Positions 206-902 of a stretch of 64,000 nucleotides of DNA are shown piece by piece. Origin of the DNA: a virus. Under the pieces are notes generated by a model. That model saw only the letters and a list, made by a program, of their open reading frames with translations. It was not told the DNA's origin and ran no database searches. Position 1 is the stretch's first letter; each line of letters begins with the position of its first letter. The stretch is from positions 25,593-89,592 of IMG/VR virus record IMGVR_UViG_3300017917_001434; one strand, written 5' to 3'. Made by a program: the position numbers and the translations under genes.

Positions 206-234
206 TTGACCGATAAACTGTTATGTAGTACAAT
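206..234 (+). promoter_or_regulatory. sigma70-type promoter upstream of the tmRNA locus
   Basis: TTGACC-N17-TACAAT. Confidence 0.65.
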
Positions 235-251
235 TAGCAATAAATATTCAC

Positions 252-326
252 ATGAACGGTGAATATAGATTAAACAATTTAGGTGAATTGGAGGTGTATC
301 GTGAAGGTTATTGGCAACCAGCATAA
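252..326 (+). CDS. putative 24-aa leaderless late peptide MNGEYRLNNLGELEVYREGYWQPA
   Basis: TAAATA at 241-246 lies 5 nt before the ATG, the same geometry as other late genes; no SD. Confidence 0.35.
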   Translation: MNGEYRLNNLGELEVYREGYWQPA

Positions 327-374
327 CATATTTTGGTACCATAAACTTGGCTGTACCTGCCCAATTTGTAGTGT

Positions 375-458
375 ATGATTAAGTTTATTAAACGATTATT
401 TCAAGGTAAGGACTATGTAGGTTATAGACCTTATTGGTTTAAACAGCGTAAACACTAA
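375..458 (+). CDS. possible 27-aa basic peptide MIKFIKRLFQGKDYVGYRPYWFKQRKH
   Basis: Short ORF overlapping the 5' end of the tmRNA acceptor piece; no clear SD. Confidence 0.25.
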   Translation: MIKFIKRLFQGKDYVGYRPYWFKQRKH

Positions 459-503
459 GGTAAGGACTTCAAGACGGCGGTTCGATTCCGCCCAGGTCCA
501 CCA
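445..503 (+). ncRNA. ssrA: two-piece (permuted) tmRNA, acceptor piece
   Basis: GAC-GGCGG-TTCGATT-CCGCC T-arm, then CAGGTCC-A-CCA; ACTTCAA 466-472 pairs with TTGGGGT 640-646; the 5' boundary is approximate. Confidence 0.9.
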
Positions 504-514
504 AAAGGTATCTT

Positions 515-619
515 ATGGAATATATTTGGATAACAGTATTTGTTTCAATTCATATTTGGGCATTATTAAAATATGAATCAGATGAAAAAATAGACCAAAT
601 GTGGCAAGATAATTTTTGA
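515..619 (+). CDS. 34-aa ORF filling the tmRNA intervening segment (MEYIWITVFVSIHIWALLKYESDEKIDQMWQDNF)
   Basis: SD-like AAGGT at 505-509 right after the CCA; stop ends 1 nt before the tmRNA 5' end; hydrophobic N-half. Confidence 0.5.
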   Translation: MEYIWITVFVSIHIWALLKYESDEKIDQMWQDNF

Positions 620-620
620 T

Positions 621-835
621 GGGCCTGACCAGGTTTCGATTGGGGTAGATAGAATAAGTGCGCTCGAGAGTCGACTGACGTAATCAGCGAAAAACTAGTA
701 AATGCAAAAGCAAATACTTCTAACGTAGTCAAAGTATCTATGGGCCGTGGCTTCCGCTTCGGTACTCGTAATACTGAGGCTTTAGCAGCTTAGTACTGCC
801 GTTCGGGGCAGTTATGCCTTGTTACCCAAAATAAC
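621..835 (+). ncRNA. ssrA: two-piece (permuted) tmRNA, coding piece, with tag ORF 704-793 (AKANTSNVVKVSMGRGFRFGTRNTEALAA*)
   Basis: GGGCCTG pairs with CAGGTCC including the G3:U70 Ala determinant; D-loop analogue ACCAGGTTTCGA; GTAAAT|GCA resume context; tag ends LAA; pseudoknot GGGGC/GCCTT plus GTTAT/ATAAC at 805-835. Confidence 0.9.
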
Positions 836-857
836 CAAACCCGCTTCGGCGGGTTTG
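836..857 (+). terminator. terminator-like hairpin after tmRNA
   Basis: CAAACCCGC-TTCG-GCGGGTTTG. Confidence 0.7.
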
Positions 858-874
858 CTACCTTTATAAAGAGG

Positions 875-902
875 TTGACAAATACACTAAATCGTGTATA
901 AT
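875..902 (+). promoter_or_regulatory. sigma70-type promoter
   Basis: TTGACA-N16-TATAAT. Confidence 0.7.

What the first reader, a model, noticed from the sequence alone, without database searches (positions are those of the whole stretch)
504..620. The tmRNA intervening segment is exactly filled by an SD plus a 34-aa ORF
Seen: the 117-nt segment between the CCA and the mature 5' end holds AAGGT, an ATG at 515 and a TGA ending at 619, one nt before G621. The peptide has a hydrophobic N-half and an acidic C-half. Inference: the excised spacer or the unprocessed precursor doubles as mRNA for a small membrane peptide, which would couple translation to tmRNA maturation. Intervening segments are normally considered non-coding.
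Basis: partly seen in the sequence, partly recalled or inferred. Interest (0 to 1): 0.7.

Follow-up and report, generated by a model that had tools for sequence, protein, structure and literature searches.

The report
Small gene inside phage tmRNA spacer
The 117-base spacer that is cut out when this giant phage's two-piece ribosome-rescue RNA (tmRNA) matures probably carries a real 34-codon gene for a small hydrophobic peptide; no relative of this particular peptide was found, but it fits a recurring and apparently unpublished pattern in which such spacers hold small genes.

Summary
A permuted tmRNA (Rfam RF04321 104 bits, RF01850 88 bits) has its CCA end at 503 and its mature 5' G at 621. The 117-nt spacer between them holds AAGG (505-508), AUG 515 and UGA 617-619, giving a 34-aa ORF.

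Two of the three striking features are generic. A stop triplet one nt before the mature G (TGAT or TAAT) occurs in 97 of 109 permuted-tmRNA spacers I collected. A closing stem occurs in 97 of 103.

The nearest tmRNA relatives (L094, L237, L233) have unrelated, shorter spacers without the ORF, and the peptide has no homologue.

Three results still argue for a real gene:
- The open frame is unlikely by chance (p about 0.007-0.02).
- Across the collection, 23 of 103 spacers carry a spacer-filling ATG ORF on the sense strand and 0 of 103 on the antisense strand.
- SD motifs co-occur with those ORFs (13/22 versus 3/87), and two ORF families show purifying selection (dN/dS 0.05 and 0.14).

The window has the same layout as these, including the AUG at nt 12. 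I put a genuine cistron translated from the precursor at about 0.6 and a chance ORF at about 0.2. Translation has not been shown. Earlier unchecked notes of this scan describe the same pattern in at least 55 other genomes; I found no publication of it.

The parts
206..234 (+). Sigma-70-like promoter (TTGACC, 17 nt, TACAAT), the likely start of the pre-tmRNA transcript
   Evidence: Promoter scan, 10 of 12 consensus matches. This is a consensus match only.
252..378 (+). Conserved leader block with two overlapping small ORFs: 252-326 (24 aa) and GGAGG plus GTG 301-378 (25 aa, with a CxCxxC motif)
   Evidence: About 93% identical to the block just upstream of the tmRNA in metagenome locus L237, while the flanks differ. 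It cannot be decided which frame, if either, is coding.
445..503 (+). Acceptor piece of the two-piece tmRNA: T arm, 3' acceptor strand 493-499 and ACCA 500-503
   Evidence: RF04321 and RF01850 alignments, ARAGORN, and 78-95% identity to relatives.
504..620 (+). Intervening segment (IVS) of 117 nt and 25% G+C, absent from the mature tmRNA
   Evidence: The boundaries follow from the CCA end and from the acceptor-stem partner GGGCCUG at 621-627. It is the longest and one of the most AT-rich spacers in its tmRNA family.
504..514 (+). 5' strand of the closing stem (AAAGGUAUCUU), which contains the SD-like AAGG at 505-508
   Evidence: It pairs with 606-616 (10 pairs, 1 mismatch). An SD tetramer in the first 12 nt is found in 13/22 ORF-bearing spacers against 3/87 others. 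The 6-nt spacing to the AUG is typical of this phage's genes.
515..619 (+). 34-codon ORF (MEYIWITVFVSIHIWALLKYESDEKIDQMWQDNF) with stop UGA at 617-619
   Evidence: the ORF listing. Shuffle p = 0.007-0.02. The codon score beats 99.5% of open shuffles but falls in the lowest 5% of real gene chunks. No homologue was found.
606..616 (+). 3' strand of the closing stem (AAGAUAAUUUU), which overlaps the last four codons of the ORF
617..620 (+). UGAU leader immediately 5' of the RNase P site, which supplies the ORF's stop codon
   Evidence: TGAT in 82 and TAAT in 15 of 109 unique spacers.
621..860 (+). Coding piece of the tmRNA: 5' acceptor strand 621-627, tag reading frame 704-793, and terminator hairpin 836-857
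   Evidence: ARAGORN tag coordinates, cmscan, terminator-like hairpin, and family alignment.

Best explanation
The spacer is a stem-closed slot in the pre-tmRNA that holds a genuine small cistron.

**Proposed sequence of events**
1. Transcription starts at the promoter near 206-234.
2. As the spacer emerges, and before its 3' strand exists, a ribosome binds AAGG (505-508) and AUG 515 and translates 34 codons.
3. The ribosome terminates at UGA 617-619. This is the near-universal U(G/A)AU leader in front of the RNase P site.
4. A terminating ribosome would cover the 5' acceptor strand (621-627). It would also hold the closing stem (504-514 with 606-616) open.
5. Only after ribosome release can the closing stem and the acceptor stem form. 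RNase P then cuts 5' of G621, and the spacer is trimmed back to CCA 503, which destroys the message.

Translation and maturation are therefore mutually exclusive on any one molecule. The peptide would be made in a short pulse tied to tmRNA transcription.

**Product and origin**
- The product is a small hydrophobic peptide, probably membrane-associated, with an acidic tail. Its role is unknown.
- The gene is lineage-specific cargo, one of many unrelated small genes found in this slot in related phage tmRNAs.

**Shown versus inferred**
- Shown: the anatomy, the improbability of the ORF by chance, the recurrence of the layout, its strand specificity, and selection in other spacers.
- Inferred: translation of this particular ORF, the order of events, and the membrane location.
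For: **In the window**
- The open frame is unlikely by chance in 25% G+C sequence: p = 0.007-0.013 and 0.02.
- Among shuffles that stay open, only 0.5% reach its codon score.
- G+C by codon position is 35%, 21% and 18% for positions 1, 2 and 3 (from the base counts).
- AAGG lies 6 nt before the AUG, within the 6-10-nt spacing usual for this phage's long ORFs.

**Across 109 unique spacers of permuted tmRNAs, fetched with patterns taken from this tmRNA**
- 7 of 9 spacers of at least 120 nt, and 8 of 26 of 95-119 nt, carry an ATG ORF covering at least 80% of the spacer. Each of the seven long ones has shuffle p of 0.007 or less.
- Such ORFs occur in 23/103 spacers on the sense strand and 0/103 on the antisense strand. 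The antisense control keeps length, composition and hairpin symmetry.
- An SD tetramer lies in the first 12 nt in 13/22 ORF-bearing spacers against 3/87 others (Fisher p = 9e-9).
- The AUG is at nt 12 after a module N-AAAGGA(U/C)UU(U/G)U in L041, L226, L112 and L166. The window has AAAGGUAUCUU-AUG.
- Nine spacers, including the window, end their ORF at the same UGA.
- Purifying selection is seen in other spacers: L144/L200 dN/dS 0.05 at dS 1.1, and L031/L026 dN/dS 0.14.
- The 124-aa ORF in the L147 spacer has 28 homologous protein clusters.
- L226, a member of the window's own tag family, has a different spacer-filling ORF.
Against: - There is no homologue of this peptide or of this spacer anywhere I searched: a degenerate DNA pattern in viral contigs, phmmer against 1.84 billion representatives, the cluster look-up, which found only the window's own record, Pfam, PHROGs and the Atlas, and tblastn against phages. 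No dN/dS can be computed for it.
- The nearest tmRNA relatives lack the ORF.
- The SD is only 4 nt and lies inside the closing stem, although that stem is weak and AU-rich.
- The ORF's G+C (24.5%) is lower than 99.8% of 105-nt chunks of this phage's genes. Its codon score is in the lowest 5% of real gene chunks, and 18% of spurious small ORFs do as well.
- The hydrophobic-then-acidic layout is partly what a U-rich arm followed by an A-rich arm would encode anyway.
- L017/L086 have dN/dS near 1, so not every spacer ORF shows selection on its peptide.
- The closest published analogue, the S23p ORF in the Coxiella 23S rRNA IVS, appears not to be translated in vivo (PMC4990558).
- No expression data could be obtained.
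Confidence: 0.6

Rival explanations
1. The ORF is fortuitous. The spacer is a disposable, AU-rich, stem-closed linker whose only job is to hold the two acceptor strands together until RNase P and the 3' trimming enzymes act. The frame happens to be open, and it is closed by the generic UGAU leader.
For: - The stop position and the AAAG start are generic.
- The nearest relatives have unrelated spacers without the ORF.
- The peptide is a singleton.
- The G+C content is atypical for this phage's genes, and the codon score lies between real and spurious ORFs.
- Other AT-rich spacers (L245 of 90 nt, L223, L241) have no ORF.
- Short relatives also show chance TTG ORFs that run to the same TGA.
- The hydropathy pattern follows from U-rich and A-rich halves.
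Against: - The chance of the open frame is about 1-2%. The additional SD tetramer occurs in only 3/87 ORF-less spacers.
- The AUG position is identical to four other ORF-bearing spacers.
- There are no comparable ORFs on the antisense strand of any of the 103 spacers.
- The interior of the spacer is not significantly structured (z = -1.1 to -1.2, against -2 to -9 in most relatives). RNA structure therefore does not explain its length.
Confidence: 0.2
2. The act of translation matters but the peptide does not. The ORF works like a leader peptide: a ribosome passing through opens the closing stem and masks the RNase P site. This delays or meters tmRNA maturation according to the cell's translational capacity.
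For: - The SD and the last four codons form the two strands of the closing stem, and the stop lies at -4 to -2 of the RNase P site.
- L017/L086 keep the frame, the ends and the hydrophobicity at dN/dS near 1.
- The cargo peptides in different spacers are unrelated to one another.
Against: - Most relatives mature their tmRNA with short ORF-less spacers, so no such control is needed in general.
- Other spacer ORFs are under strong selection on the peptide itself (dN/dS 0.05 and 0.14).
- A third of the ORFs read through the RNase P site in the +1 frame instead of stopping in front of it, so the geometry is not uniform.
Confidence: 0.15

Closest known systems
Circularly permuted (two-piece) tmRNA genes (Rfam RF04321 and RF01850; Keiler, Shapiro and Williams 2000; Sharkady and Williams 2004, cited from PMC11915505 and PMC9004378). 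Phage-borne examples include OM43 phage Melnitz and the Stenotrophomonas Menderavirus phages.
   Same: - The gene order is acceptor piece, CCA, intervening sequence, then coding piece.
- The match to the betaproteobacterial model is above its gathering score.
- Phage carriage is already known: 53 two-piece tmRNAs among isolate phages (PMC9004378), and an annotated ssrA in Menderavirus.
   Different: - Published descriptions treat the IVS as sequence absent from the mature RNA (PMC11915505).
- The only IVS contents reported there are a tRNA-Ala gene and a repetitive element.
- In six full-text searches I found no report of protein-coding IVSs.
Intervening sequence of Coxiella burnetii 23S rRNA, which carries the S23p ORF (PMC4990558)
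   Same: An ORF sits inside a stem-closed segment that is excised from a stable-RNA precursor and then rapidly degraded. That segment is regarded as an acquired element.
   Different: - It is excised by RNase III from rRNA helix 45, not by RNase P and 3' trimming from a tRNA-like acceptor stem.
- S23p appears not to be made in vivo and is decaying (abstract).
- By contrast, at least two tmRNA-spacer ORF families are under purifying selection and carry their own SD.
Group I introns with homing-endonuclease genes in the T-loop of tmRNA genes (PMC11915505)
   Same: A protein gene is nested in a part of the tmRNA gene that is removed from the mature RNA.
   Different: - The window's spacer shows no intron: no family other than the tmRNA models reached its threshold there.
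- There is no self-splicing and no religation, and the two pieces stay separate.
- The cargo is a 34-aa peptide, not an endonuclease.
Dual-function bacterial RNAs (SgrS/SgrT, RNAIII/delta-haemolysin, SR1/SR1P; general survey in PMC5521070) and tRNA-mRNA co-transcripts cut by RNase P (the tufB operon and the T4 tRNA cluster; textbook knowledge)
   Same: One transcript serves both as a functional RNA and as a messenger for a small, often membrane-active peptide. RNase P separates the RNA part from the mRNA part.
   Different: The messenger lies between the two halves of a single functional RNA, and those halves must pair around it. Its SD and stop codon are built into the processing structure.

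Membership tests
Permuted (two-piece) tmRNA, betaproteobacterial type (RF04321 / RF01850) | Score above the curated gathering threshold | tested here: met
   RF04321 104.2 bits (threshold 47) and RF01850 88.3 bits (threshold 84).
Permuted (two-piece) tmRNA, betaproteobacterial type (RF04321 / RF01850) | T arm and CCA lie upstream of the 5' acceptor strand, and the acceptor stem carries G3.U | tested here: met
   CAGGUCC-ACCA at 493-503 pairs with GGGCCUG at 621-627. ARAGORN flags the gene as permuted.
Permuted (two-piece) tmRNA, betaproteobacterial type (RF04321 / RF01850) | Tag reading frame with an alanine resume codon and a C-terminal hydrophobic degron | tested here: met
   GCA at 704 through TAG at 791-793. 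The tag ends in ALAA. The same tag family occurs in at least 10 relatives.
Permuted (two-piece) tmRNA, betaproteobacterial type (RF04321 / RF01850) | The transcript is processed into two base-paired pieces that act with SmpB | not testable with these tools
Spacer-borne small genes of permuted tmRNAs (a class defined here; not found in the literature) | An ATG ORF on the sense strand covers at least 80% of the spacer | tested here: met
   Coverage 0.90, p = 0.02. In the class, 23/103 on the sense strand against 0/103 on the antisense strand.
Spacer-borne small genes of permuted tmRNAs (a class defined here; not found in the literature) | An SD-like tetramer within 12 nt after CCA, with the start codon 9-20 nt after CCA | tested here: met
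   AAGG at 505-508 and the AUG at nt 12 of the spacer. The motif occurs in 13/22 against 3/87 spacers.
Spacer-borne small genes of permuted tmRNAs (a class defined here; not found in the literature) | The closing stem is retained around the ORF, and the stop is at the U(G/A)AU leader or beyond it | tested here: met
   10-pair stem, 504-514 with 606-616. The stop is at 617-619, the same mode as eight other spacers.
Spacer-borne small genes of permuted tmRNAs (a class defined here; not found in the literature) | Protein-level conservation (dN/dS below 1, frame kept) among homologous spacers | tested here: inconclusive
   No homologous spacer exists in the collections searched. This is met for L144/L200 and L031/L026 but not for L017/L086.
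Spacer-borne small genes of permuted tmRNAs (a class defined here; not found in the literature) | The ORF is translated | not testable with these tools
   No ribosome profiling or RNA reads are available.
Type I toxin-like or holin-like small membrane peptides | Sequence membership in a described family | tested here: not met
   No Pfam hit. The only PHROG hit is phrog_5054 at E = 0.032 over the hydrophobic stretch. Atlas scores are 0.81 or less, which is chance level.
Type I toxin-like or holin-like small membrane peptides | A transmembrane helix of about 20 residues, an antisense RNA partner, and toxicity on expression | not tested
   Hydropathy only: about 16 hydrophobic residues including Ser and His. 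A promoter-like site on the minus strand at 548-519 is a consensus match only.

The most novel reading that the evidence does not exclude
The spacer genes may be functionally tied to trans-translation itself.

In this window the stop codon lies one nucleotide from the RNase P cut. In a third of the other ORF-bearing spacers the frame instead runs through the cut (...UUU GAU | GGG CCU GAC...).

Once RNase P has acted, the acceptor-piece-plus-spacer intermediate is therefore a near-non-stop or true non-stop message. Ribosomes caught on it would become substrates of the phage's own tmRNA. The peptide would then be either released or extended by the 29-aa tag, depending on how fast maturation runs.

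This would be a built-in sensor, or a first substrate, for the phage's rescue system.
Probability: 0.08. Interest if true: 0.85.

Novelty: new variant of a known kind. Interest (0 to 1): 0.6.

Why it matters
- tmRNA intervening sequences are annotated and modelled as discarded, non-coding RNA. If they are a regular slot for small genes, phage and bacterial annotation pipelines are missing a class of small proteins, many of them membrane peptides.
- The tmRNA precursor would join the short list of transcripts that are both a stable-RNA precursor and a messenger. Here the SD and the stop codon are physically built into the processing structure.
- That geometry gives a directly testable case of competition between ribosomes and RNase P on one RNA molecule.
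- It also raises the question of what phages gain from expressing small peptides in step with their own ribosome-rescue RNA.
- This window adds one orphan example. Its main value is the recurring layout, not the individual peptide.

Tried and rejected
**Searches that found no relative of the spacer or the peptide**
- megablast and blastn of the locus against 50,697 phage records: no match.
- tblastn of the peptide against the same records: no match.
- A degenerate pattern for WITVFVSIHIW in viral contigs: 0 hits.
- phmmer against 1.84 billion representatives found only the window's own product, plus two long proteins (1134 and 855 aa) that I did not examine and take to be compositional matches.
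- The cluster look-up returned a singleton from the 89,592-bp record.
- Pfam, PHROGs and the Atlas gave nothing usable.
- There is no paralogue in the 89.6-kb record.

**Searches that were uninformative**
- The one genome-contig scan returned mostly standard tmRNAs and only 3 permuted ones.
- Three Methylophilaceae genomes have no permuted tmRNA above the cut-off, so the host-lineage question was dropped.
- The search for related loci with the L147 spacer protein found only identical copies.
- The papers by Keiler 2000 and by Sharkady and Williams 2004 are not held.

**Readings I rejected**
- The spacer is a group I intron or another known RNA: no Rfam family other than the tmRNA models reaches its threshold there.
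- The minus-strand 60-aa ORF at 550-732 is a gene: it lies antisense to the conserved tmRNA body, and no antisense spacer ORFs exist in the class.
- The spacer's length reflects extra RNA structure: z is only -1.1 to -1.2.

Full report
**1. What is in the sequence**

The window is the last 64 kb of an 89.6-kb IMG/VR virus record that CheckV rates 22% complete, so it is a fragment of a very large phage.

ARAGORN finds one permuted tmRNA at 411-884 with a 29-aa tag. cmscan gives RF04321 tmRNA_permuted at 104 bits and RF01850 beta_tmRNA at 88 bits, both above their gathering scores.

Reading directly:
- The 3' acceptor strand is 493-499 and ACCA is 500-503.
- The 5' acceptor strand GGGCCUG is 621-627.
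- The intervening segment (IVS) is therefore 504-620, 117 nt.
- It holds AAGG(T) at 505-509, AUG at 515 and UGA at 617-619.
- The ORF listing gives the 34-aa ORF MEYIWITVFVSIHIWALLKYESDEKIDQMWQDNF.
- The N-terminal half is hydrophobic, the C-terminal half is acidic, and the net charge is -4.

A promoter-like site (206-234) and a terminator hairpin (836-857) bracket the gene.

**2. Chance**

The IVS is 25% G+C against 40% for the window.
- Dinucleotide-preserving shuffles with the terminal TGAT fixed give an ATG ORF of at least 34 codons ending there in 0.7% of trials, or 1.3% with any start.
- Among mononucleotide shuffles that remain open, only 0.5% reach the ORF's codon-usage score.
- That score nevertheless lies in the lowest 5% of real 34-codon chunks of this phage's genes, and 18% of spurious small ORFs do as well.
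- Only 0.2% of gene chunks are as AT-rich.

The ORF is improbable by chance, but on internal evidence alone it is not convincingly gene-like.

**3.

Pattern scans of viral contigs and of JGI metagenomes recovered a family of phage tmRNAs with the same unusual tag core (…VKVSMGRGFRF…).
- Acceptor piece, coding piece, terminator and the following promoter all align well.
- The IVS interior does not align at all.
- IVS lengths run from 57 to 137 nt, and none contains a counterpart of the 34-aa ORF.
- The nearest relatives have unrelated IVSs of 96, 57 and 76 nt: L094 (acceptor piece 95% identical), L237 (coding piece 87% identical, and sharing the upstream leader block) and L233.
- The peptide is a singleton. 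Only the window's own product was found among 1.84 billion representatives and about 15 billion proteins. There was no hit in Pfam, PHROGs, the Atlas, phage tblastn or a degenerate DNA scan.

**4. What is generic**

I extracted the IVS from 153 permuted tmRNAs in the fetched loci, giving 109 unique sequences.
- The last four bases are TGAT in 82 and TAAT in 15. A stop triplet one nt before the mature 5' G is therefore the rule and was not tailored to this ORF.
- 97 of 103 IVSs have a closing stem of at least 8 pairs. It starts 0-3 nt after CCA and ends 3-6 nt before the mature G. Only 4 of 103 shuffles do.
- In the window this stem is 504-514 with 606-616, with 10 pairs and one mismatch.
- The purine-rich AAAG after CCA is the usual 5' strand of that stem.
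- The interior of the window's IVS is not significantly structured (z = -1.1 to -1.2), unlike most relatives (z = -2 to -9).

**5. The turn: spacer-filling ORFs recur**

The same collection contains many other, mutually unrelated IVSs with the same layout as the window.

*Length classes*
- 7 of 9 IVSs of at least 120 nt carry an ATG ORF covering at least 85% of the IVS, each with shuffle p of 0.007 or less.
- An eighth long IVS has such an ORF from a TTG start.
- 8 of 26 IVSs of 95-119 nt carry an ORF covering at least 80%.
- Long IVSs thus appear to be long because they carry an ORF.

*Three controls against artefact*
- Strand: 23/103 IVSs have such an ORF on the sense strand and 0/103 on the antisense strand. 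The antisense control preserves length, composition and hairpin symmetry.
- SD: an SD tetramer lies in the first 12 nt in 13/22 ORF-bearing IVSs against 3/87 others, Fisher p = 9e-9. ORF-less IVSs typically start AAAGCAUACU, and ORF-bearing ones AAAGGAUUUU-AUG or UAAGGAGAUUAGC-AUG.
- Selection: L144/L200 differ by 11 synonymous and 3 conservative changes (dN/dS 0.05 at dS 1.1), although their tmRNA bodies have diverged. L031/L026 encode homologous 49-50-aa basic proteins (dN/dS 0.14). L017/L086 keep frame and hydrophobicity at dN/dS near 1.

*Other observations*
- The 124-aa ORF in the 398-nt IVS of L147 belongs to a protein family of 28 clusters.
- About half of the ORF families encode short hydrophobic peptides.
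- Stop modes vary: nine IVSs stop at the generic UGA, nine read in the +1 frame across the RNase P site into the tmRNA body, and four stop 9-12 nt earlier.
- Presence and absence alternate among closely related tmRNAs, for example L144 against L058. L226 lies inside the window's own tag family and holds a different ORF.

**6. Where the window stands**

It shares every structural feature of the ORF-bearing class.
- It has AAGG where its ORF-less relatives have AAAGC or AAAGU.
- Its AUG is at nt 12, as in L041, L226, L112 and L166.
- Its ORF covers 0.90 of the IVS.
- Its stop is at the generic UGA.
- The closing stem is retained.
- The 6-nt spacer between SD and AUG is within the 6-10 nt usual for this phage's long ORFs.

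What is missing is direct evidence: there is no homologue and no expression data. I therefore put a genuine small cistron at about 0.6, a fortuitous ORF at about 0.2, and a translation-only, leader-peptide-like role at about 0.15.

**7. Mechanism (inferred)**

- The SD and the last four codons are the two strands of the closing stem. The stop lies at positions -4 to -2 of the RNase P site.
- A ribosome can load only while the stem is open, most easily during transcription.
- A ribosome terminating at 617-619 would cover the 5' acceptor strand.
- Translation and folding or processing therefore exclude each other on any one molecule.
- After the RNase P cut, the IVS is a 3' trailer that must be removed back to CCA. 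This makes the precursor, not a free excised spacer, the likely template (textbook tRNA 3'-end maturation).
- A membrane location rests on hydropathy only. The U-rich-then-A-rich composition would by itself yield a hydrophobic-then-polar peptide.

**8. Known and new**

- Phage-borne two-piece tmRNAs are known (PMC9004378; annotated ssrA in Menderavirus).
- The current tmRNA database paper defines the IVS as sequence absent from the mature tmRNA. It reports only a tRNA gene and a repetitive element as IVS contents (PMC11915505).
- Six full-text searches found no report of IVS-encoded proteins in tmRNA genes.
- The nearest published analogue is the S23p ORF in the RNase III-excised IVS of Coxiella 23S rRNA. 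That ORF appears not to be translated in vivo (PMC4990558), which is a reason for caution.
- Earlier notes of this scan record the same pattern in at least 55 other genomes. They are unchecked AI notes, and I read them after reaching the class-level result. They agree with it but are not independent evidence.

**9. Limits**

- The comparison set was fetched with patterns derived from this tmRNA, from viral and metagenomic contigs. It is a biased sample, and some members are near-duplicates.
- The family-collapsed Fisher test used approximate family counts.
- Whether bacterial permuted tmRNAs show the same pattern was not established.

Noticed in passing
window 252-378: A leader block upstream of the tmRNA is about 93% identical to the block just upstream of the tmRNA in metagenome locus L237, while the flanks differ. 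It holds two overlapping small ORFs: 252-326 (MNGEYRLNNLGELEVYREGYWQPA) and GGAGG plus GTG 301-378 (VKVIGNQHNIFWYHKLGCTCPICSV, with a CxCxxC motif). The few differences do not show which frame is coding. Neither ORF has a Pfam or PHROG hit.
   Followed up: partly
window 617-620, and the last 4 nt of 109 spacers in the fetched loci: U(G/A)AU directly before the mature 5' G is nearly universal in permuted tmRNA genes: TGAT in 82 and TAAT in 15 of 109. The known RNase P preference for U at -1 explains only one of the four bases. The reason for the rest is open.
   Followed up: partly
L226:730-879, L166:1099-1251, L041:4365-4481, L103:1587-1787, L217:3481-3648: In these spacers the ORF runs in the +1 frame through the RNase P site (…UUU GAU GGG CCU GAC…) and stops 5-19 codons inside the mature tmRNA. 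After processing, these would be non-stop messages.
   Followed up: partly
L147:56-453 (minus strand): A 398-nt tmRNA spacer holds a 124-aa ORF with an AAAGGAAA SD. The protein has 28 homologous clusters (40-98% identity) in metagenomes and no Pfam family. Whether its homologues also sit in tmRNA spacers could not be checked.
   Followed up: partly
window 704-793: The tmRNA tag is unusually long (29 aa) and basic. Its core KVSMGRGFRF is conserved in at least 10 related phage tmRNAs. The C-terminal ALAA is kept.
   Followed up: no
window 875-902: A perfect sigma-70 consensus promoter (TTGACA, 16 nt, TATAAT) directly follows the tmRNA terminator. The same arrangement is conserved in the relatives.
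   Followed up: no
L082:5586-6200 (minus strand): In this more distant relative, a tRNA-like gene ending in CCACCA lies immediately upstream of the tmRNA acceptor piece.
   Followed up: no
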